From a virus (lineage: Duplodnaviria; Caudoviricetes): a DNA stretch of 64,000 bases. Positions 15,602-57,080 of this stretch are shown here, one piece after another (within the stretch, counting starts at the first letter, position 1; each line of letters begins with the position of its first letter). Below the pieces are notes generated by a model, which saw nothing but the letters and a program-made list of their open reading frames with translations, searched no databases and was not told where the DNA came from. The stretch is taken from the IMG/VR virus record IMGVR_UViG_3300033121_001593, positions 79,319 to 143,318 of that record; one strand, given 5' to 3'. A program made the position numbers and the translations under genes.

Positions 15602-15888
15602 CGCTGCTTCTCCTTGGGATAATTTGGGATAACGTGGGATACTGTGGGATATTCCGCCTCACAGGCCAGGCAGATATCGCCGGCCTTGCTCATGGCGTAG
15701 TGGCCGACCCAGCGGCCGCAATCGATGCAGCGCAGCACGCGGCGGGCGTCGACGGTTAGCTCCCAGGCCAGCCGCCATTCGACCAGGCCGGCCGCTTGGG
15801 CGGCGGCGAGGAAGCCCTGATCGCCGCCATCGGCCAGCGCGGTCATCAGGGCTTGCCTCTCGCCGATTGTGATAAAGCTAGTCACCAT
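15595..15888 (-). CDS. Small Zn-finger protein
   Basis: CIDC...CLAC; GAGGAGG SD; overlaps the TROVE stop. Confidence 0.55.
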   Translation of the reverse strand: MVTSFITIGERQALMTALADGGDQGFLAAAQAAGLVEWRLAWELTVDARRVLRCIDCGRWVGHYAMSKAGDICLACEAEYPTVSHVIPNYPKEKQRC

Positions 15889-17329
15889 CCTCCTCATTTG
15901 CGCCGGCCACGTTTGCGCCCTCGAAGGCCGCAATGAAGTGCATGAACTGAGACGACCAGCCGGTGACCTCAGCGGTCCAGACTCCCGCATAGCTCACGCC
16001 GCGGCTATGGCCCGAAATGTCGGTGATGTAGTTGCGGGCGGCCCATGGCTCCGGCATCCGTCCGCTATCATCCATATCCTGCGAGTCGCTGAAGACGATC
16101 AGCCGGTCAGCCGGGGCACCGCGCCGATCCGCCTTGATGAAGTCCAGGGCCTGGCGGGTGAAGATACCACCGCCGCCCAGACGCCCGGAGGCGCGCCTGA
16201 TCTCGTCCATCAGGGCAAAGCCGCGCCGACGCTTCAGTAGCTCGGTCTGGTGCGTCTGCCCCAAATCGCTGCCGGCAGTAGCATAGACCTGGACCTTGAC
16301 CGCCTGCTCGGCCGCCAGCATGGCCAGGGCCGCGGCGGCGTCCAGCCAGGAAAGGTCGCTCTGCCCGGAGAGCCTGCCGTGCTCCATCGATCCCGATACG
16401 TCAACAACGAGCACGGTCTCGCCGGCCAGCTTGGGGGCGGTCGCCAGCGCCCGGAACATCATAGCCTCGATCTCGCCCTGCCAGCGGGGCGCTGCCCGGC
16501 CGGCGGCGATGAAGTTGATCGGCAGCAGCCAGCGCGCCGGGGCCGTCTCGAAGTAGGCCGCGATGGCGGCCCGGTCCACGCCCTCCCGCTCCATCAGGGC
16601 CAGGTTACGCAGGAAGGCCAGGCCGGGCAGCCGGCGCTCGGCCATCAGGCGCTCGAACGTCTCACGCTTGTTCGCTCCGGCGCTCAGGGCCACCTCCCAG
16701 GTATCGGGGGGCGTAACATGGCCGGCCTTTAGCTCGGCCAGGGCGCGGGCGTTGCGCGGCGTCGGGACCGGGTGCAGCAGGCGCGCGGCGTCTCGCAGGG
16801 TGACGGCGTGCCCCTTGCCCTGGTACTTGGCCAGTTGATAGTCATCGAACTGAGCAAAGGCGTGAGCCAGCCCGGTCTTGAGTTGGCTGGCCAGCGGCGC
16901 GCGCGGCTTGCCGGCGGGGGTCGGGTTTTCCATGGCGTAGAGCGTGAGGGCCTCGGTGATGCCGTCGGCGCGCCCGACGATCACGGGTAACAGCTCGGCC
17001 ACCAGCGCCCGGTGGGCGGGGTACTTGAGCATCTGGATTGCCACGAACAGGGGAACGTGGCGCAGGCCCTGTTCGTTGCGCGCCTGCCAGGCCAGACGGG
17101 CGACGACCGCCGGCTCGACCTCAGGCACCAGCTTGCGGATCACGTCCGCGGTCACCGCGCCGCGCTCATAGAATTTGTCCTCCCAGAGCAGGTTAGAGAG
17201 GATCGCTCGCGCCAGCAGGGCGTCCGATCCCTGCAGGGCGGCCGGCGCGCCCGCGCCTCCGGCCACGCGCGCCTTGGGGTCCATCGCGCCCTTGCGGCTC
17301 GGCTTGGGGGTTGGCTTGTTGGTTCGCAT
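15878..17329 (-). CDS. Ro60/Rsr-like TROVE-vWA RNA-binding protein
   Basis: LLWEDKFYE, GLRHVPL, FDDYQLAKY, PDTWEVALS, AFLRNL, vWA MIDAS VDVSGSM, IVFSDSQ. Confidence 0.92.
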   Translation of the reverse strand: MRTNKPTPKPSRKGAMDPKARVAGGAGAPAALQGSDALLARAILSNLLWEDKFYERGAVTADVIRKLVPEVEPAVVARLAWQARNEQGLRHVPLFVAIQMLKYPAHRALVAELLPVIVGRADGITEALTLYAMENPTPAGKPRAPLASQLKTGLAHAFAQFDDYQLAKYQGKGHAVTLRDAARLLHPVPTPRNARALAELKAGHVTPPDTWEVALSAGANKRETFERLMAERRLPGLAFLRNLALMEREGVDRAAIAAYFETAPARWLLPINFIAAGRAAPRWQGEIEAMMFRALATAPKLAGETVLVVDVSGSMEHGRLSGQSDLSWLDAAAALAMLAAEQAVKVQVYATAGSDLGQTHQTELLKRRRGFALMDEIRRASGRLGGGGIFTRQALDFIKADRRGAPADRLIVFSDSQDMDDSGRMPEPWAARNYITDISGHSRGVSYAGVWTAEVTGWSSQFMHFIAAFEGANVAGANEEDGD

Positions 17330-30543: not shown

Positions 30544-31737
30544 TCATTCATAGTCGCCGGCCCGCCCGACCAACTCGACCAGAAAGGCGATGGTGGCCTG
30601 AGCGTCATTGTAGACGGTGAACTCGTCGCGCCGCGGCCAGGAGATCGGGTTAGGCGGGGCGACCGCGTGCATCGAGTCGTACAGGCCCTGGGCGGCCCCG
30701 TGGTGCCCGTCGTCCTGGCGGACGGTGACCTTTTTCTCCCGGCCCAGCTTGACCGAGAATACCGCCATGCAGGCCGGATCATCGCTGCTACCGCCGCCCC
30801 AGCGTGCGCCCTTCAGGCTCGTGTAGCTGATCGACTTATGCGCCCAGTCGGCAAAGTACAGGCCCTTGCCCAAGGCCCAGCCGTTTGAGTATGACGGGCG
30901 GATAACTAAGCCCTGCGTCATGATCGACCAGAAGTTCGGCGTCTTGCTACCGTGAAAGAGCAGCCGGCCTTTTTCGCCGGGCTTCCAGGCGTCATACTTG
31001 GCCTGCGTGGCGAAGTGGATCACCCGCCAAATCCGGCCGATGTTCGGCTTGCTCTGAGCCTCGACCAAGGCCAGGACTTGCGCCCGCTCAGCCGGCGTCG
31101 CCTCCCGGATATCGAGGCCGATGGCGTCCAGCACCGTTTGATCGGCGGCGGTAGGCTGCGGGCGTGCCCTCAGGCTGGCGCGTAGCTGATCGACTAAGGC
31201 TTGCTCGTCGGCGAGCTTTGCGCCGATCACATGCCGCGCCGCGCCGGCCGGCAGTAGCTCGTCGGCGACCTTGCGCATCTTACGGGGCAAGACCCGCCAT
31301 AGCTCGACCAGGCCGGCGTTGACGGCGCTGACCGTCATCTGCCCGTTGAGGCCGCCGATCCGGTCCAGGATGCGCTGCGCCTCGACTAGCTGCGCCTCGG
31401 TGATGCTCTCAGCGTCCGAGTAGCTGGCGGCGATTGAGACGCCCGCCTTTTGCTGCAGCCAGTCCACCAGCCAGCCGACCGAGCCGGCCAGGGGCTTGAA
31501 AGCGACCGCGTCCAGCGTGCGCTTTTGCGCCGTCATATCCCGATAATCGTGCTTCTCCCGCGTCCGAATCGTCGGGTTCCACTCCGACATAGGGAATACC
31601 TTTGACTGGCCCGCCGTGCCCACCCGGCCCCAGCGCGCCGTGAAGGTCGATCCCGCGGGGTCGGCCTTCATCTCGTAGAATTTATTGGCGTTGGCGTCCG
31701 CCGCCACCTTGATCCCGTACCAGAAATCTGTCGTCAT
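30544..31737 (-). CDS. PARP-family ADP-ribosyltransferase with WGR and regulatory domains
   Basis: NANKFYEM...RWGRVG (WGR); LLFHGS, GKGLYFAD.A.KSISY and DEFTVY give the H-Y-E triad. Confidence 0.9.
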   Translation of the reverse strand: MTTDFWYGIKVAADANANKFYEMKADPAGSTFTARWGRVGTAGQSKVFPMSEWNPTIRTREKHDYRDMTAQKRTLDAVAFKPLAGSVGWLVDWLQQKAGVSIAASYSDAESITEAQLVEAQRILDRIGGLNGQMTVSAVNAGLVELWRVLPRKMRKVADELLPAGAARHVIGAKLADEQALVDQLRASLRARPQPTAADQTVLDAIGLDIREATPAERAQVLALVEAQSKPNIGRIWRVIHFATQAKYDAWKPGEKGRLLFHGSKTPNFWSIMTQGLVIRPSYSNGWALGKGLYFADWAHKSISYTSLKGARWGGGSSDDPACMAVFSVKLGREKKVTVRQDDGHHGAAQGLYDSMHAVAPPNPISWPRRDEFTVYNDAQATIAFLVELVGRAGDYE

Positions 31738-35706: not shown

Positions 35707-37029
35707 ATGAAGATCAGCCCCGCAGCAGAGACCATCAGCCGAATAATCGAGACCGCAGGCGGAAGCGCCTGGATCACGGGCGGGGCCTGCCGCGACGAGA
35801 TCATGGGCCGGACGCCTCGCGACTTCGACATCGAGGCTTTCGGGATCACGAAGGAAGCGGCCTGTGAGGCTATCCGGGCCGCAGGCTTCGCCTGCAAGAT
35901 CGCCGGAGCCGCCTACAGCATTATCATCGCCACGGTGGACGGCGAGGATATCGAGATTAGCATCAGCGCCGGCACGATTGCCGAGGCTGCCGCCCGGCGC
36001 GACTTCACCGCCAACGCCATCTACTTCCGCCCGGCCACCGGCGAGTGGGCCGACTCCTTCGGCGGCCGCGCCGATATCGAGGCCGGCATCATTCGAGCCA
36101 CGCCCGGCTTCGCTCAGGACCCCGGCCGCATGATGCGGGCCGCCCGCTTCGCCGCCCGCTTCGGCTGGACCATCGAGCCGGCGACGCGTGACATGATCCG
36201 GGCCATGGCCGGTCGTATGAGCGAAGTGGCCACGGAGCGCATCTGGCCGGAATTCGCCAAGGCTTTCGAGGCCGACCGCCCCGGCGACTTCATCCGGGCC
36301 ATGGCCGAGATCGGCATCATGGGCCACTTCCCCGAAATCGCCGCCATCTGGGACTGCCCGCAGGACCCGGCTTGGCACCCTGAGGGACCGACCGGCCCCC
36401 ACTCCGCTCACACGATGGACGCCGCCGCCGCCATCTGCCGGCGCGACGGTATCACAGGCGAGGATCGGATCGCCTTCATCGCCGGAGCCATGGTGCACGA
36501 CTTCGGCAAGGCTACGACGACGGTGACGCGGGAAGACGGGCGCATCGCCAGCCCCGGACACGCCGAGGCCGGTATCGAGATCGCCGCCCGCTTTTTCGCC
36601 CGCTGCGGCATCGCCGGCAGCCCGGTGGCCGAGCGAGCCATCGCCATGACGGCTGAGCACATGAGCCACACGGGCGAGATCAGCCCCCGCACGGTGCGCC
36701 GGATCGCCGCCCGCATCGCCCGCCATGGCGCGACGATCAGCGACATCGCCCGGATCATCGAGGCCGACGCCTCCGGCCGCCCGCCCATCCCGGCGGGGAT
36801 GCCTGAGGGTGGCCGGCGCATGATCGAGATCGCCGCCTCCATGGCGATTGTGGACGCCGCCCCCGTGGCCATCATCATGGGCCGGCACTGCATCGCCGCC
36901 GGCATGGCCCCCGGTCCCCGCATGGGCCGGATCGTGCGAGCCGCCTTCGAGGCTCAAATCGACGGGGCCTTCGAGGACGAGGCCGGCGGGATCGCCTGGA
37001 TCGCCGAACACGCCGCCGAAATCGCATAG
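35707..37029 (+). CDS. cca: Class II tRNA nucleotidyltransferase (CCA/CC-adding) fused to an HD phosphohydrolase; leucine-free
   Basis: GGACRD...DFDIE (motif A), RRDFTANA, QDPGRMMRAARF, ERIWPE; HD domain HPEG..GPH, VHDFGK, GHAEAG, ADASGR; C-terminal GRH...PGPRMG. Confidence 0.92.
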   Translation: MKISPAAETISRIIETAGGSAWITGGACRDEIMGRTPRDFDIEAFGITKEAACEAIRAAGFACKIAGAAYSIIIATVDGEDIEISISAGTIAEAAARRDFTANAIYFRPATGEWADSFGGRADIEAGIIRATPGFAQDPGRMMRAARFAARFGWTIEPATRDMIRAMAGRMSEVATERIWPEFAKAFEADRPGDFIRAMAEIGIMGHFPEIAAIWDCPQDPAWHPEGPTGPHSAHTMDAAAAICRRDGITGEDRIAFIAGAMVHDFGKATTTVTREDGRIASPGHAEAGIEIAARFFARCGIAGSPVAERAIAMTAEHMSHTGEISPRTVRRIAARIARHGATISDIARIIEADASGRPPIPAGMPEGGRRMIEIAASMAIVDAAPVAIIMGRHCIAAGMAPGPRMGRIVRAAFEAQIDGAFEDEAGGIAWIAEHAAEIA

Positions 37030-40680: not shown

Positions 40681-41096
40681 CGACGATCACCGAGGATCAG
40701 CGCCGGCAGATCGCCGGCCTGCCGCAGATGTTTGTCTATGGCCGGCCGCGCTGGCCAGTCGGGATCGGCCCCGACTGGATCATCCTGAACGGCCCCGGCT
40801 TTCTCTATGGCCAGCGCGTCTGGGAAGGCGACGGCGCTTTCGGCCGCTGCTTTGCAGCCCTCGATCCTGAGGACCGCGACACGCCCGACTCCCTGGCCGC
40901 CAATCTGGCCGGCCGGCCGGCGCGGGTGACGGTCGTCAGCGAGGCCGCCGCTGCCGAGGATTATGACCGCTGGCGGGCCGCCAAGACCGCCCGTTATGCT
41001 ACCGCCGCCGCCATGCCGGAAGATGCCCTCCGGCGGGCTTGGATTGACGAAAGGCAGGAATCGGAATGCCGCAAATGGCGCAACCAACCGACCTAA
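40677..41096 (+). CDS. Hypothetical protein
   Basis: Coupled ORF. Confidence 0.5.
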   Translation: MTTITEDQRRQIAGLPQMFVYGRPRWPVGIGPDWIILNGPGFLYGQRVWEGDGAFGRCFAALDPEDRDTPDSLAANLAGRPARVTVVSEAAAAEDYDRWRAAKTARYATAAAMPEDALRRAWIDERQESECRKWRNQPT

Positions 41097-41722
41097 CCCC
41101 CACCGGCTGGCGGCCCTCACCGACCGACTGGGATATGATCCCCGGCAACGAACACGTCCGACGCGCTATCGAGATCGCCTTCATTGGCGGGCACTCGATC
41201 TTTATCGTCGGGCCGCGCGGGTCATACGCTGAGGACATGGCCCACTTTGCGCGCGGCCGCGGGATGCGGGCCTACGCCGCCTGGCCCTGCGCCTGCGGCC
41301 GGTCGACCGGCGAGTTCTGCGATACGTGCGGAACTAACACGCAGGACGAGTATATTCGCTCGCACTATCCACCCGCCGGCGCGGTGGATATCTACATCGA
41401 GGCCCGCGCCGAAGTAGGACCGCGCGGCCCCGGCGAGGCCTGGCGCAACGCGGTACACCGCGCCAATGACGCCGCGCCCTGGATGAATGAGGACGGCGCA
41501 AAGATGGAGCTTGATGCCGCCGGCGTCTCCCTCCTGCGAGCCGCCACGGCGATGCTGGCGCTAGACGAGGACGCCTGCAGCCGGATCAAGCACGTCGCCC
41601 GCACGATTGCCTGCGCCGCCCACTCCGAGTTTATTCGCACTCCGCACCTGGCGGAGGCTATTCAGTACAGACCGCCGGCCTATGTAGTGACCGTCACCAC
41701 GCCGGCCAAGGAGGACGACTAA
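41066..41722 (+). CDS. Internally deleted ComM/YifB (Mg-chelatase-like AAA+) homolog
   Basis: GNEHVRRAIEIAFIGGHSIFIVGPRGS, PCACG, VDIYIE, RIKHVARTIA, HLAEAIQYR; Walker A lacks GKT. Confidence 0.75.
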   Translation: MPQMAQPTDLTPTGWRPSPTDWDMIPGNEHVRRAIEIAFIGGHSIFIVGPRGSYAEDMAHFARGRGMRAYAAWPCACGRSTGEFCDTCGTNTQDEYIRSHYPPAGAVDIYIEARAEVGPRGPGEAWRNAVHRANDAAPWMNEDGAKMELDAAGVSLLRAATAMLALDEDACSRIKHVARTIACAAHSEFIRTPHLAEAIQYRPPAYVVTVTTPAKEDD

Positions 41723-42168
41723 TGCCACGCTTTGCCGCCCCTGTTAGCCAGGAGACGCTGCTCGATTGGGTCCGTGACTTCGTGACCCGCCCGCAAGTCG
41801 AGAGCGACCGCCGCGGCGGATGGGCACCGGTCAGCGACGCCGATCTGGGCCTGCTGGACCGGATCATCGAGAATATGATCTGCATTCACTGGGCACCGGA
41901 CGCGGACGGCGACCGGCCCATCGAGTCCTATCTGAATGACCGGACGCAGTTCGAGCCATGGCCCTGGGTGCCCGTGCCCTACTGGCACGGGGCCGGCGAC
42001 ATAGAGGAATTCGTGACGGCCACGATGCGCAACGCGCAGGCCGCCACCGCCCGCTTTGCCCTGGCCCTGGAGTTTGCCGAGAGCCGGCGCGAGGCCGCCG
42101 CCAAGGCCGACCGTGAGGCCGCCGCCGCCCTGGCCCTCGCCGACATAACCGACGCTTCCCTGCCCTGA
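41722..42168 (+). CDS. Hypothetical protein
   Basis: Coupled ORF. Confidence 0.5.
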   Translation: MPRFAAPVSQETLLDWVRDFVTRPQVESDRRGGWAPVSDADLGLLDRIIENMICIHWAPDADGDRPIESYLNDRTQFEPWPWVPVPYWHGAGDIEEFVTATMRNAQAATARFALALEFAESRREAAAKADREAAAALALADITDASLP

Positions 42169-42196
42169 GAGACCCCGGCCGCCGGCCCCGCCTCAA

Positions 42197-42226
42197 AAAG
42201 CCCGCTTGACAAGAGCGGGCTTTTTC
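42197..42226 (+). terminator. Intrinsic terminator
   Basis: AAAGCCCGCTTGACAAGAGCGGGCTTTTT. Confidence 0.65.
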
Positions 42227-42230
42227 GCGC

Positions 42231-42304
42231 CAACCTTAAAAGTTTGCGACTTTTTGTCAAAAGGCCCAAAACCGCTTGACAAACTAAACGACCTGTAGTA
42301 GAAT
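42231..42304 (+). promoter_or_regulatory. Early promoter (type A) driving the ncRNA candidate
   Basis: AACCTTAAA box, TTGACA-17-TAGAAT. Confidence 0.8.
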
Positions 42305-42310
42305 GACTAT

Positions 42311-42662
42311 AGGATAAAGAAAGGCATTAACAACCGCATAGGGAAAGGCCCACGGGGCTGCAAGGCCCCACTCGCTAAGTAGGCTGCTAGGACAACACAA
42401 GCCATAAGCACTCGAAGCCCGGCAACGGGCGGCCCTCTCAGGGTAAGTCAGACAAACGGCGGCTAGGCCCGGAAGACCTCACAAAAGGCAGGGTATCGGC
42501 AGGCAGGCACTGAGAGTTCGGGAAGGCGGGATGAAGATACTAGCGGAGACGTTGACCGGATAAGAAGCTGAGCGCCAGGGGACGAACCGGGCGAAGGTGA
42601 AGGACCAACAGCGGAAAACCAAGGCAAGGCGAGAGGCACCCCTAAGCGGCGGTTAAGGCCCC
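42311..42662 (+). ncRNA. Large structured ncRNA candidate (~340 nt)
   Basis: No ORF >=60 aa; closing helix 42323-42343/42640-42660; nested helices; two GCAA tetraloop hairpins; purine-rich loops. Confidence 0.65.
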
Positions 42663-42687
42663 AAGGATCAGCGTAAGGACCAAACCA

Positions 42688-43014
42688 ATGACCACCGACC
42701 CCAGCAATATCTACACGCAGACCCCGCCAAACGCGACGACGCTCGGCTACTGGATGCGCCAGGCCGCTAATGACTATCCACGCGTCACGCGCCAGATCAT
42801 TCAGGCCGGGGTCGACGCCGTCGACGCGGTGGCCGCTCAGGGCGCGGATGCAGCGCCGGCAATCATAGCCGCCGCCTGGCGTAAGATCGTGGAGGCCATT
42901 GACGAGTATCGCGGGAACACCTGCACGAGCTGCCGAGGGCGCGGGCGTTCCGAAAACGTCGAAGCCTTTTGGCCCTGCCAGGATTGCGCCCCATTCGCAG
43001 ACGAGATGAACTAG
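42688..43014 (+). CDS. Hypothetical Zn-finger protein (1 Leu in 108 aa)
   Basis: CTSCRGRG...WPCQDC. Confidence 0.6.
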   Translation: MTTDPSNIYTQTPPNATTLGYWMRQAANDYPRVTRQIIQAGVDAVDAVAAQGADAAPAIIAAAWRKIVEAIDEYRGNTCTSCRGRGRSENVEAFWPCQDCAPFADEMN

Positions 43015-46661: not shown

Positions 46662-46704
46662 AGGTGTATTGAGCAAGTTATCCGCAGCGAAAGGAACCGA
46701 CCCA

Positions 46705-48024
46705 ATGAATACCCATCTTCTGCTTAACCGATACCGAGGCCAGGCGAACTATGGCGAAATCGCCAAGGACGCGGCGAAGGCCGCCCAAGCCAATCCCGCC
46801 ATGACCGAGGCTGAGTTACTGGCCTACATCGAGTCGCGCTACGCGCCGGCCACCCTACTGCAGCCGATGAAGCAGGCCGCGCCGCTGGCGGTATTCGGCG
46901 CTGACCTGATCGACCCCGGCGCGTTTGCGCAGATGTACTCCGTCTTGCGCCTGCCCGTGGCGGTACGCGGGGCCTTGATGCCGGACGGGCACCAAGGGTA
47001 CGCGATGCCCATAGGCGGGGTGGCGATCCTACGGGACGCCGTCTCGCCCTCATTCGTTGGCTATGACATCGGCTGCATGATGATGGTCTCGACCTTCGAG
47101 ATCACGCCGCAAGACTTCGCCGGCAGCCGCCCGGCGCTGGCCGCGGCCCTGCGTAACGTTACGTCGTTCGGCCTGGGCGCGATGACGCCGGCTGCACAAG
47201 GCCGGTTCGATCACCCGGTCATGGACGATCCCCGCTGGTCGGAGACGGCCATCTTACGCTCGCTGAAGCCCCTGGCCCGTGAGCAGTTAGGCAGTTCGGG
47301 CGGTGGCAATCATTTCGCCGATCTGTGCGAGGTGACCTGGGCGACAGGGCGCGACGCGCAGATTGCCCTCATGACGCACTCCGGCAGCCGGGCCGCCGGT
47401 CATAAGCTGGCGACGCACTATGTCTCTGTTGCCCGGAGAGAGACGGCCGCCATCGCCCGTGGGATCGAGCCAGGCTACGAGTGGCTGCCCGACTCCAGCG
47501 AGGCCGGCCAGGAATATCTGGCCGCCATGCAGTTGATGGGCGACTACGCGCGGGCCAATCACGAATGTATCCACGCCGCCTATGCCGAGGCCATCGGAGT
47601 CCGACCGGACTGGACGGTCTGGAACCGGCACAACTTCGCCTGGGTCGAGGAAGAAGGGATCGTACACCGCAAGGGCGCAACGCCGGCCCGCGCTGGCGAT
47701 ATCGGGATCATCCCCGGCAGCAGCGGAACCCCGTCCTATATTGTCCGAGGCAAGGGCAACGTCGCGTCGATCAATTCGTCTTCTCACGGCGCAGGCCGGC
47801 CCTTCTCACGCAGTGAGGCCAAGCGCCGGCACAACGCCGGCCAAGTCGACGGCTGGATGACCGAGCACGACGTTCTGAGCTTCGGCCTGGCCCCCGACGA
47901 GACCTATGCCGCCTACAAGGATATCGCGGCCGTCATGGCGGCGCAGACCGATCTGGTCGATATCGTCGCCACGCTCATCCCGCGCGTCGTCGTCATGGGC
48001 GGGCCGGCCGACGACGGCGATTGA
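46705..48024 (+). CDS. rtcB: RtcB RNA 2',3'-cyclic/3'-phosphate-5'-OH ligase
   Basis: MPDGHQGYAMPIGG, VGYDIGC, LGSSGGGNHF, THSGSR, HNF, VHRKGAT, SSHGAGR, DETYAAYK. Confidence 0.95.
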   Translation: MNTHLLLNRYRGQANYGEIAKDAAKAAQANPAMTEAELLAYIESRYAPATLLQPMKQAAPLAVFGADLIDPGAFAQMYSVLRLPVAVRGALMPDGHQGYAMPIGGVAILRDAVSPSFVGYDIGCMMMVSTFEITPQDFAGSRPALAAALRNVTSFGLGAMTPAAQGRFDHPVMDDPRWSETAILRSLKPLAREQLGSSGGGNHFADLCEVTWATGRDAQIALMTHSGSRAAGHKLATHYVSVARRETAAIARGIEPGYEWLPDSSEAGQEYLAAMQLMGDYARANHECIHAAYAEAIGVRPDWTVWNRHNFAWVEEEGIVHRKGATPARAGDIGIIPGSSGTPSYIVRGKGNVASINSSSHGAGRPFSRSEAKRRHNAGQVDGWMTEHDVLSFGLAPDETYAAYKDIAAVMAAQTDLVDIVATLIPRVVVMGGPADDGD

Positions 48025-50260: not shown

Positions 50261-50574
50261 GCTACGCCTTCCGGCACCCCCTACGCTGGCTCTTTGTCAA
50301 TCTGCTAGCCCTCACCTTCCGGCGATACGAGTACTACTACCATACCCGGCGCTGGCAGAAAATACGCGCCTACTGCATAGACCGGGACGCCCACCGCTGC
50401 CGGCAGTGCAACCGGCCCATGGGCAACCGCCTCGACGTTCACCACAAGCGCCCGGTCTCGAAGGGCGGTTCCTGGCATACCAGGAACCTGACCAGCCTCT
50501 GCGCCGCCGATCACGCCGCGCGGCACCCTGGCAACCGGACGCTTGAGGAGCACGCGCGCAAATTCGCCCGTTGA
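50257..50574 (+). CDS. HNH endonuclease
   Basis: RWQKIR...RDAHRCRQC...DVHHKRP..GG...NLTSLCAADH. Confidence 0.85.
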   Translation: MSYAFRHPLRWLFVNLLALTFRRYEYYYHTRRWQKIRAYCIDRDAHRCRQCNRPMGNRLDVHHKRPVSKGGSWHTRNLTSLCAADHAARHPGNRTLEEHARKFAR

Positions 50575-50675
50575 CAAAACGAAAGGCTGCTGTAGAATGA
50601 TGATAACGCCCGGTCGCTTAGTAGCGCCCAACTCTAAGCGACCGAGCGCCTACTCCGAAAGGCAGGCGCTATCAT

Positions 50676-56872: not shown

Positions 56873-57080
56873 AGGGCAAAAAGAAATCGCTGCTTTCTCG
56901 TGGGCTTGAGCCGATTGCAATTAGTGCGCAGACAACACTAGCGGCAACAAGCTCACGAGAAAGAAGCGATTCGGTTGTGTGTCTGCGTAACCTGTAACGC
57001 TTTGGCTTGCAATGGCCCTCGCGCTACACGGACATCATACACTACCCGCTTCTCCCTGTCAAGGGGGTAAAATCGAATCT

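What the first reader, a model, noticed from the sequence alone, without database searches (positions are those of the whole stretch)
42311..42662. Candidate large, multi-branched ncRNA directly behind a strong early promoter
Seen: ~375 nt without an ORF in a gene-dense region, between a terminator/promoter and the next SD. The ends pair: GGC-A-TTAAC-AA-CCGC-A-TAGGG (42323-42343) with CCCTA-A-GCGG-CG-GTTAA-G-GCC (42640-42660). Nested helices are CTGCTAG/CTAGCGG (42374-80/42540-46) and CTCTCAG/CTGAGAG (42435-41/42510-16). There are GNRA hairpins GGGGCT-GCAA-GGCCCC and GCCCG-GCAA-CGGGC, and the linkers are A/G-rich. Inference: a folded RNA in the style of large phage RNAs such as ROOL/GOLLD but shorter; it could be a scaffold, decoy or ribozyme. 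I do not recognise the family.
Basis: partly seen in the sequence, partly recalled or inferred. Interest (0 to 1): 0.8.

Follow-up and report, generated by a model that had tools for sequence, protein, structure and literature searches.

The report
New structured RNA gene in phage
A roughly 340-base stretch behind a strong early promoter of an uncultivated 143-kb phage is a real, conserved, folded non-coding RNA that matches no described RNA family, and its function is still unknown.

Summary
Window 42311-42687 (+) has no conserved ORF. It lies between a terminator plus a near-consensus sigma-70 promoter and the next gene.

About 10 metagenomic relatives carry the same RNA, at 84-99% nucleotide identity. 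In most of them it is better conserved than the downstream gene (74-86% nt).

A 15-helix model has 94.7% of cells paired. Twelve base pairs changed on both sides (0 of 500 shuffles reach this; 0-4 in slid controls). CTCTCAG/CTGAGAG is not kept in relatives.

The RNA is a discrete ~338-nt cassette set inside this phage's standard ~45-nt early leader. One divergent relative has it with its own promoter, followed by a second promoter and an unrelated gene. Two lineages have the downstream gene without the RNA. It therefore behaves as an independent RNA gene rather than a dedicated leader.

Rfam 15 gives no match, even at E<=10. It fails tests for tmRNA and CsrB-type sponge, and comparison by eye and recall argues against Y RNA and RNase P. 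Function is inferred only: most likely a stable trans-acting scaffold or decoy RNA. Another first-stage note in this scan describes the same stretch; no look-alike was noted on other DNA.

The parts
42195..42225 (.). Bidirectional intrinsic terminator hairpin (A-tract, GCCCGCT/AGCGGGC stem, T-tract) that ends the upstream operon
   Evidence: Sequence; terminator scan; weak terminator-type Rfam hits on both strands
42232..42275 (+). Conserved upstream box (AACCTTAAAAGTTTG...) that precedes many promoters of this phage
   Evidence: Sequence. The same box precedes the promoter in relatives L005, L013 and L152
42276..42304 (+). Sigma-70-type promoter TTGACA-17-TAGAAT; transcription start inferred near 42311
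   Evidence: 11 of 12 matches. It is one of about 30 near-identical promoters in the genome
42311..42322 (+). 5' piece of the standard early leader (AGGATAAAGAAA), upstream of the RNA cassette
   Evidence: Comparison with about 20 other leaders of the same promoter family
42323..42660 (+). The structured RNA proper (~338 nt), closed by the P1-P2 stalk
   Evidence: Conserved in 8 full-length distinct variants and several partial ones; pair counts
42323..42343 (+). 5' strand of closing stalk P1a/P1b/P1c/P2; pairs with 42640-42660
   Evidence: P1c CCGC/GCGG becomes CCGA/UCGG in L026 (read by eye)
42354..42369 (+). P3 hairpin GGGGCU-GCAA-GGCCCC
   Evidence: 2 pairs changed on both sides (helix 2)
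42371..42375 (+). P4 5' strand CUCGC; pairs with 42629-42633 GCGAG
   Evidence: Becomes CUCGG/CCGAG in group B and GUCGU/GCGAU in L026 (read by eye because of an alignment offset)
42383..42390 (+). P5 5' strand (GGCUGCUAG region); pairs with 42540-42547 and closes the central domain
   Evidence: 5 of 8 pairs changed on both sides, three different helix sequences (helix 4)
42411..42416 (+). P6 5' strand CUCGAA; pairs with 42517-42522 UUCGGG
   Evidence: 100% paired; pair 102:211 is UG, CG or UA (helix 5)
42417..42430 (+). P7 hairpin GCCCG-GCAA-CGGGC
   Evidence: 2 pairs changed on both sides, three pair types at the closing pair, 100% paired (helix 6)
42432..42444 (+).
   Evidence: 100% paired with two one-sided changes (helix 7). 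The alternative helix has 6 of 10 non-canonical cells at 129:202
42467..42494 (+). P9/P10 arm (P9 42467-70/42491-94; P10 42477-80/42485-88), a variable arm and site of expansion segments
   Evidence: C-G to G-C swap in L013; variable tetraloops ACAA, UCAG and GAAA; 39-nt insertion in L026 and 65-nt insertion beside it in L013
42558..42615 (+). Dispensable 3' domain (P11 42567-70/42609-12; P12 42573-79/42587-93; P13 42596-98/42604-06)
   Evidence: The whole domain is absent in L026; P12 has a G-C to C-G swap
42661..42687 (+). 3' piece of the standard leader, with SD AAGGA (42675-42679)
   Evidence: Matches the consensus tail of the other early leaders (...TCAGC..AAAGGACC..ATG)
42688..43014 (+). 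Downstream gene: 108-aa protein, a three-helix bundle plus a CxxCxGxG...CxxC zinc knuckle. It is the usual but not obligatory neighbour of the RNA
   Evidence: No Pfam, PHROG or PDB relative

Best explanation
This is the gene of a previously undescribed ~340-nt structured non-coding RNA, carried by a small clade of uncultivated high-G+C phages. It is a discrete cassette set inside the phage's standard short early leader, so the host sigma-70 polymerase makes it at the very start of infection. It folds into a stalk (P1-P2) that joins its two ends. A central domain (P5-P10) has two GCAA-capped hairpins and long, invariant purine-rich junction strands. A detachable 3' domain (P11-P13) completes the fold. 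Shown here: the conservation, the fold, the strand, the non-coding nature and the independence from the neighbouring gene. Inferred: the RNA is released from the read-through transcript by cleavage at the base of the stalk. It then acts in trans as a stable, compact RNA whose invariant unpaired purines form a binding surface. That would make it a scaffold or decoy for a protein, in a phage that is heavily invested in RNA repair (Ro60, RtcB, a CCA-adding enzyme, tRNA arrays).
For: Conservation: the RNA is found upstream of homologues of the 108-aa gene in 8 of the 10 lineages sampled, and in a JGI contig found by motif scan. RNA identity to the window is 84-99%, against 74-86% nt and 64-83% aa for the downstream gene. 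The exception is the mosaic L013 (74%), which has an insertion.

Structure: on A3, 94.7% of cells pair, against 27-47% when partners are slid. Twelve pairs changed on both sides (0 of 500 shuffles; slid controls 0-4). The covariation score is 0.134 against at most 0.039; A1 gives the same picture. The model is energetically sound: the constrained fold is -117.5 against an MFE of -119.8 kcal/mol, and 55 of 71 pairs are in the MFE. Insertions (65 nt in L013, 39 nt in L026) and the ~57-nt deletion in L026 fall in peripheral arms.

Strand: several conserved G-U pairs exist only on the + strand, and the + strand folds better relative to shuffles than the - strand (z -0.22 against +1.70).

Not coding: there is no start in frame 0. 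The single ATG heads a 10-codon frame that a 1-nt indel breaks in relatives. Minus-strand ORFs change frame and sequence between lineages.

Independent gene: in L026 the RNA has its own promoter and is followed by a second promoter and an unrelated 78-aa gene. L018 has an extra 88-aa gene between the RNA and the 109-aa gene. L002-4 and L152 have the gene behind the same promoter type with only a ~40-45-nt leader. The flanks of the cassette match the two halves of the standard leader. It is single-copy in the genome.

Context: TROVE/Ro60, RtcB and a CCA-adding enzyme lie in the window, and 10 tRNAs elsewhere in the genome.
Against: The transcript, its ends and any processing are therefore unproven. 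There is no terminator after the RNA, so in most lineages it is physically the 5' UTR of the next gene, and a cis role cannot be excluded. No partner was identified. The 108-aa neighbour has no recognisable RNA-binding fold. The single-sequence folding energy is not exceptional. Only about 6 independent sequence lineages are available. About 60% of the RNA is unpaired in the model, and its invariance gives no covariation information. The scaffold or decoy role is inference from anatomy and genomic company only.
Confidence: 0.6

Rival explanations
1. It is a cis-acting regulatory leader (riboswitch-like or protein-responsive) that controls translation or read-through of the downstream 108-aa gene.
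For: It lies between promoter and SD, with no terminator, in 8 of 9 RNA-bearing lineages. The 3' strand of P1a (GCC, 42658-42660) could alternatively pair with the SD region (RNAalifold pairs).
Against: In L026 it is followed by a fresh promoter and an unrelated gene. In L018 another gene is interposed. Two lineages of the gene family lack it altogether. The tail after P1 is simply the standard leader found at about 20 other genes. At 338 nt with a detachable domain, it is larger than riboswitch aptamers as I recall them. No known riboswitch matched in Rfam.
Confidence: 0.15
2. It is a ribozyme, or the RNA subunit of a catalytic RNP. For example it might be self-processing, or act on the phage's many tRNA-like RNAs.
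For: There are long invariant junction strands, two invariant GNRA loops, a closing stalk and a size close to RNase P RNA.
Against: No match to RNase P, group I or II introns or any small ribozyme model, even at E<=10. By eye, the RNase P P4 strand order and complementarity (recalled from memory) are absent, and the RNA is too U-poor to form them. No cleavage data exist.
Confidence: 0.08
3. It is the Y-RNA-like partner of the phage's Ro60 (TROVE) protein.
For: The phage encodes a TROVE+VWA protein. The RNA ends pair into a long stem, as in Y RNAs. No YrlA-type RNA was found in the window by Rfam.
Against: According to PMC4201824, Y RNAs are 80-130 nt, lie within 4 kb of rsr on the same strand, and carry a GNCGAA(N)G motif and, in YrlA, a tRNA-like domain. 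This RNA is ~340 nt, lies 25 kb away on the opposite strand, and has CUCGAAG (CCCGAAA in L026) instead of the motif. ARAGORN finds nothing tRNA-like here.
Confidence: 0.07
4. It is a selfish DNA insertion (MITE-like, with terminal inverted repeats) that has no function as an RNA.
For: It is a discrete insertion into a standard leader, with imperfect 21-nt inverted ends and patchy presence among relatives.
Against: It is single-copy in the genome and I saw no target-site duplication by eye. Compensatory changes occur in internal helices far from the ends. G-U pairs are valid only on the + strand. Base composition is strongly strand-asymmetric. The sequence is better conserved than the adjacent coding gene.
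Confidence: 0.03
5. It encodes one or more small proteins.
For: There is a 10-codon ORF with an SD-like GGAAGG upstream (42532-42564), and open frames of 47-110 codons on the minus strand.
Against: The uORF frame is broken by a 1-nt indel in group B. Minus-strand frames differ in frame and in peptide sequence between lineages, and are expected from the A-poor minus strand. Indels are of 1, 2, 39, 57 and 65 nt.
Confidence: 0.02

Closest known systems
ROOL and GOLLD RNAs (large ornate ncRNAs, often phage- or prophage-borne; they form RNA-only multimers according to the abstract of bioRxiv 10.1101/2024.12.08.627333, listed)
   Same: It is a large multi-helix phage-encoded RNA with GNRA loops and conserved junctions and no known function, in a genome rich in tRNA genes.
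   Different: It is ~340 nt, shorter than ROOL or GOLLD as I recall them (about 580 and 800 nt). No covariance-model match to either, even at E<=10. It is nested in an early mRNA leader. Multimerisation is untested.
Bacterial and phage Y RNAs (YrlA/Yrn1), partners of Ro60
   Same: The 5' and 3' ends pair into a long stem, and the phage encodes Ro60, RtcB and a CCA-adding enzyme.
   Different: It is three times too long, lies 25 kb from the TROVE gene on the other strand, and has no GNCGAA(N)G motif, no tRNA-like module and no Rfam hit.
Bacterial RNase P RNA
   Same: Similar size, a closing helix, a hairpin near the 5' end and purine-rich invariant joining regions. Short look-alike strings (GGGAAAGGCC, GUAGGCUGCU) resemble E. 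coli M1 RNA as I recall it.
   Different: By eye, the order of elements differs, and no P4 pseudoknot partner exists. No match to any RNase P model at E<=10. The look-alike strings are recalled from memory and are only a lead.
Stable RNAs excised from longer transcripts through a stalk formed by their flanks (rRNA precursor stalks cut by RNase III; the small stable RNAs of the T4 tRNA cluster)
   Same: A long interrupted helix joins the two ends of the RNA inside a read-through transcript that has no terminator of its own.
   Different: Processing here is only inferred. No cleavage site is known and the host is unknown.
CsrB/RsmZ-type protein-sponge RNAs
   Same: Similar length, purine-rich, with many GGA and AAGG strings.
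   Different: GGA is not enriched (13 observed, 11.9 expected). GGA-bearing loops are not conserved: GGUGAAGGACC becomes GGUCAGAGACC. No Rfam hit.

Membership tests
Any Rfam 15 family (4227 models, including ROOL, GOLLD, OLE, raiA, HEARO, RNase P, tmRNA, 6S, SRP, group I/II introns, YrlA, riboswitches) | Covariance-model score at or above the family's gathering threshold | tested here: not met
   0 hits in the whole window at gathering thresholds. At E<=10 on 42100-42800 there are only terminator-type and chance hits outside or marginal to the RNA. The divergent homologue L026 gives the same result.
Y RNA / YrlA | Length 80-130 nt with a Ro60-binding stem formed by the two ends | tested here: not met
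   The RNA core is ~338 nt (290 nt in L026). A terminal stem exists, but the size is about 3 times too large (criteria from PMC4201824).
Y RNA / YrlA | Encoded within about 4 kb of the Ro60 gene on the same strand | tested here: not met
   The TROVE gene is at 15878-17329 (-), and the RNA at 42323-42660 (+).
Y RNA / YrlA | GNCGAA(N0-1)G motif and a tRNA-like D/T module | tested here: not met
   The nearest string is CUCGAAG (CCCGAAA in L026). ARAGORN finds no tRNA-like gene in the window.
Y RNA / YrlA | Binding to Ro60 | not testable with these tools
   Needs co-immunoprecipitation or EMSA with the phage TROVE protein.
Bacterial RNase P RNA | Conserved regions CR-I and CR-V forming the P4 helix, in the canonical order P1-P2-P3-P4...P4'-P2'-P1' | tested here: not met
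   No RNase P model matches at E<=10. By eye, GGGAAAGGCC lies before the P3-like hairpin and has no complementary 3' strand. The consensus used for this comparison was recalled from memory.
tmRNA | tRNA-like domain with a G3:U70 acceptor end plus a tag reading frame | tested here: not met
   ARAGORN finds no tmRNA in the window or in the whole genome.
CsrA/RsmA sponge RNA | Many GGA motifs, enriched and displayed in hairpin loops | tested here: not met
   GGA 13 observed against 11.9 expected (P = 0.42). GGA loops are not conserved across relatives.
Riboswitch / cis-regulatory leader | Constant association with the regulated gene, and an expression platform overlapping the SD or a terminator | tested here: not met
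   The RNA occurs without the gene (L026), and the gene occurs without the RNA (L002-4, L152). The sequence after P1 is the generic leader tail of this phage. Ligand binding was not testable.
MITE-like mobile DNA | Multiple copies, terminal inverted repeats and target-site duplication | tested here: not met
   Single copy. Inverted ends are present, but I saw no duplication at the flanks by eye (AAAGAAA|...|CCAAGG). Internal compensatory changes point to selection on the RNA fold.
ROOL/GOLLD-type RNA-only assemblies | Homo-oligomeric quaternary structure | not testable with these tools
   Needs native gel, SEC-MALS or cryo-EM of the transcript.

The most novel reading that the evidence does not exclude
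The RNA is the catalytic or architectural core of a new phage machine. It could be a ribozyme or RNP enzyme that acts on tRNA-like or damaged RNAs during the phage's RNA-repair conflict with its host. Alternatively it could be a self-assembling RNA-only particle of a new type. In either case its invariant purine-rich junctions would form the active or assembly surface.
Probability: 0.12. Interest if true: 0.9.

Novelty: new variant of a known kind. Interest (0 to 1): 0.66.

Why it matters
Large, intricately folded non-coding RNAs are rare, and almost every class whose function is known turned out to do something fundamental. This one is supported by covariation and has long invariant unpaired strands that call for an explanation. 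It is made first in infection from a consensus promoter. It sits in a phage that also carries Ro60, RtcB, a CCA-adding enzyme and arrays of tRNAs and tRNA-like RNAs. Its size (~340 nt; 290 nt in the natural minimal form, L026) is convenient for probing and cryo-EM. Natural deletion and insertion variants already mark which parts are core and which are peripheral. If it proves to be a decoy, scaffold or ribozyme in RNA-level phage-host conflict, it would add a new player to a field that so far knows mostly protein effectors.

Tried and rejected
- **Known RNA families.** Rfam at gathering thresholds on the window, and at E<=10 on the locus and on L026, gave nothing relevant.
- **tRNA or tmRNA.** ARAGORN found none in the window.
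- **Cultured phages.** blastn of the locus against 50,697 phage records gave no match. tblastn with the 108-aa protein gave none. The portal protein is at most 33% identical to any cultured phage, so the host stays unknown.
- **IMG/VR through proteins.** Searches with flanking proteins and the portal found no relatives.
- **Motif scans.**
  - GTDB species genomes gave one chance hit, inside a long open reading frame of a SAR324 MAG.
  - JGI metagenomes gave one true divergent homologue, L026.
- **More L026-like lineages.**
  - P0013's contig has only 71 nt upstream of the gene.
  - The other three fetched contigs carrying P0012 (one of them L026's own record) hold an identical RNA.
  - The upstream 169-aa protein has no other homologues.
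- **Paralogues.** nhmmer found none in the genome.
- **CsrA-sponge idea.** GGA is not enriched.
- **AGGC and AAGGC.** AGGC is enriched (13 observed against 4.9 expected) and stays at 9-12 copies in relatives. AAGGC falls from 8 copies to 2-3 in group B. This is probably a by-product of A-rich linkers running into GGCC-type stems, and I left it unexplained.
It is exact in the window but broken in most relatives.
- **The 108-aa neighbour.** The AlphaFold model (pLDDT 79) has no PDB match at E<=0.001.
- **Covariance model.** I did not attempt a full-length model, because the stated calibration times made 340 positions impractical.
- **Complementarity to the tRNA array.** Short reverse-complement matches of 13-14 nt to the tRNA-array region are at chance level (E 0.2-0.8) and lie partly in non-conserved positions. 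I did not pursue them.

Full report
**What is there.** The window is the last 64 kb of a 143,318-bp, ~97% complete IMG/VR virus record with about 65-70% G+C.
- Between the stop of a 148-aa ORF (42168) and the ATG of a 108-aa ORF (42688) lie 520 nt.
- These contain a bidirectional terminator hairpin (42195-42225) and a conserved upstream box.
- A TTGACA-17-TAGAAT promoter follows (42276-42304, 11 of 12 matches).
- Then come 377 nt with no credible ORF.
- This stretch is G125 A119 C97 T36, with an AT skew of about +0.5.
- Folding the single sequence is unremarkable (MFE -119.8 kcal/mol, z = -0.22). The minus strand is worse (z = +1.70).

**The promoter and the leader.**
- The genome holds about 30 near-identical promoters of the type TTGACAAACTGAACGA...TAnAAT.
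- About 20 of them are followed by a stereotyped 40-50-nt leader, roughly ..TATAGTTAGATAAG....TCAGCCGCAGCGAnCGAAAGGACC....ATG.
- At this locus the 5' piece (GACTATAGGATAAAGAAA) and the 3' piece (CCAAGGATCAGCGTAAGGACCAAACCAATG) of such a leader are separated by about 338 nt.
- The feature is therefore a cassette inserted into a standard early leader, and its borders coincide with the P1 stem (42323 and 42660).

**Relatives.**
- The downstream protein has 11 homologues at 61-98% identity in a 5.8-billion-protein collection, and essentially none beyond that.
- Their contigs were fetched. Eight lineages carry the RNA directly upstream: L005-8, L009-12, L013-14, L015-17, L018-21, L022-23, L024 and L025.
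- A scan of JGI metagenomes with an invariant 22-mer found one more, L026, which is much more divergent. The same RNA occurs in two further samples.
- RNA identity to the window is 84-99%, while the adjacent gene is 74-86% identical in nucleotides and 64-83% in amino acids.
- L013 is a mosaic. Its flanking genes are 98% identical to the window, but its RNA has a group-B-like middle and a 65-nt insertion.
- Nothing similar exists in cultured phages, in IMG/VR, or in one genome per GTDB species, by the searches I could run.

**It is a folded RNA on the + strand.** The alignments are A1 and A3, and an E-INS-i alignment made in the script box. From these I derived 15 helices:
- P1a-c and P2, the closing stalk
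- P3, a GCAA hairpin
- P4
- P5, which closes the central domain
- P6
- P7, a GCAA hairpin
- P8
- P9 and P10, a variable arm
- P11 to P13, the 3' domain

The pair counts on A3 (9 distinct sequences, 73 pairs) are:

| Measure | Model | Slid partners |
|---|---|---|
| Cells paired | 94.7% | 27-47% |
| Pairs changed on both sides | 12 (0 of 500 shuffles reach this) | 0-4 |
| Covariation score | 0.134 | 0.039 or less |

- P5 alone shows three different helix sequences: GCUGCUAG/CUAGCGG, CGGUUAG/CUAACUG and GCUUUCAG/CUGAAAGC.
- P7 has G-C, C-G and A-U at its loop-closing pair.
- P3, P9 and P12 each have swaps in the pair counts.
- Read by eye, P4 changes from CUCGC/GCGAG to CUCGG/CCGAG and GUCGU/GCGAU. 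P1c changes from CCGC/GCGG to CCGA/UCGG in L026.
The local hairpin P8 fits all sequences.
- The model costs only 2.3 kcal/mol relative to the MFE, and 55 of its 71 pairs are in the MFE.
- Length changes fall in peripheral arms. There is a 65-nt extra arm in L013, a 39-nt insertion in the P9/P10 arm of L026, and loss of the whole P11-P13 domain in L026.
- Only about 38% of the nucleotides are in helices. Long purine-rich strands are invariant even in L026. Examples are CACAAGCCAUAAGCAC, GGGUAAGUnAGACAAACGGCGGC, CGGCAGGCAGGC and GUUCGGGAAGGCGGGAUGAA.

**It is not coding.**
- Frame 0 has no start codon and four different stops.
- The only ATG heads a 10-codon frame, which a 1-nt indel breaks in group B.
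- The minus-strand ORFs (47-110 codons) are a by-product of an A-poor strand. They change frame and peptide sequence between lineages.

**It is an independent gene.**
- In L026 the RNA has its own promoter of the same family. It is followed by a second such promoter and an unrelated 78-aa gene, and the 108-aa gene is not on that contig.
- In L018-21 an 88-aa gene sits between the RNA and the 109-aa gene.
- In L002-4 (72% identical protein) and in L152 (a distant homologue), the gene follows the same promoter type with only a ~40-45-nt leader and no RNA.
- This argues against a dedicated riboswitch-like leader. It fits a cassette that rides in early transcripts.
- There is no terminator after it. 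I therefore infer release by cleavage at the P1-P2 stalk, as happens for other stable RNAs embedded in longer transcripts. This step is not shown.

**What it is not.**
- No Rfam 15 family matches the window or L026, even at E<=10.
- ARAGORN finds no tRNA or tmRNA in the window.
- It fails the Y RNA criteria taken from PMC4201824 on size, distance and strand relative to the TROVE gene, and the GNCGAA(N)G motif, although the phage does encode a TROVE+VWA protein.
- The superficial RNase P-like strings that I recalled do not stand in the right order, and there is no P4 partner.
- GGA motifs are not enriched, so it is not a CsrB-type sponge.
- It is single-copy, I saw no target-site duplication by eye, and it shows RNA-level compensatory change, so it is not a MITE.

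**Mechanism.**
- Shown: an early-promoter-driven, conserved, + strand, non-coding, multi-domain fold with invariant unpaired purine tracts and a detachable 3' domain.
- Inferred: it is a stable trans-acting RNA that presents those tracts as a binding surface, as a scaffold or decoy.
- The genomic company makes RNA-damage and repair conflict the most plausible arena. The window holds Ro60, RtcB at 46669-48024 and a CCA-adding enzyme at 35707-37029. A WGR-PARP protein is at 30544-31737, and in the L026 lineage a WGR-PARP gene lies 1 kb downstream of the RNA.
- The usual neighbour is a three-helix protein with a CxxCxGxG...CxxC knuckle. It has no known relatives and is a candidate partner, but nothing shows that it binds the RNA.
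- Expression could not be checked.

**Verdict.** This is a real RNA family, undescribed as far as these tools can tell, with a narrow distribution. Its structure is well supported and its function is open. Another first-stage note of this scan (e1-5824516) describes the same stretch, and no look-alike was noted on other DNA.

Noticed in passing
window 15878-17329 (-): The phage encodes a TROVE + VWA protein (Ro60/Rsr-like). No YrlA or other Y RNA reaches Rfam thresholds anywhere in the window, so its RNA partner is unidentified.
   Followed up: partly
window 46669-48024 (+), 35707-37029 (+), 30544-31737 (-): Three genes for enzymes that act on RNA or on ADP-ribose: RtcB RNA ligase, a CCA-adding or poly(A)-polymerase-type enzyme with an HD domain, and a WGR + PARP-catalytic-domain protein. 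In the L026/L149 lineage, a WGR-PARP gene lies about 1 kb downstream of the RNA.
   Followed up: partly
whole genome; in the window for example 13748(-), 21974(-), 24626(-), 27835(-), 35630(+), 37101(+), 39164(+), 46634(+), 48792(+), 57125(+), 58526(+), 60930(+): About 30 near-identical consensus sigma-70 promoters (TTGACAAAcTGAAcGA..TAnAAT). Most are followed by a stereotyped 40-50-nt leader ending in ..CAGCCGCAGCGAnCGAAAGGACC..ATG, which looks like a standardised early expression cassette.
   Followed up: partly
window 56895-57035 (-): The promoter at 57062 (-) is followed by about 170 nt without an ORF. This stretch folds into two long hairpins (MFE -48.4, z -1.9), the second followed by a U-run, so it is a probable small RNA gene.
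   Followed up: partly
window 50606-50670 (+): The promoter at 50571 (+) is followed at once by two very stable hairpins (MFE -34.1, z -5.4; 0 of 200 shuffles fold as well), before any start codon. This may be a structured leader or a small RNA.
   Followed up: partly
L013:3564-4000: This relative's RNA is a recombinant. Its ends are window-like, its middle is group-B-like, and it has a 65-nt extra arm that partly duplicates the P10 hairpin, while both flanking genes are 98% identical to the window. RNA modules therefore appear to be exchanged between related phages.
   Followed up: partly
window 41066-41722 (+): A 218-aa protein matches only the first ~33 and the last ~58 positions of the Mg-chelatase/ComM-type AAA+ profiles. 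It looks like a truncated or internally deleted AAA+ protein, and it is conserved two genes upstream of the RNA in L005 and L013.
   Followed up: no
genome 32004-38290 (outside the window): ARAGORN finds 10 tRNA genes, one with an odd 2-base anticodon call, in a 6-kb array. Earlier notes of the scan describe many tRNA-like and stem-closed RNA modules there, and a 2.4-kb ORF-free promoter-driven array at about 29.1-31.5 kb.
   Followed up: no
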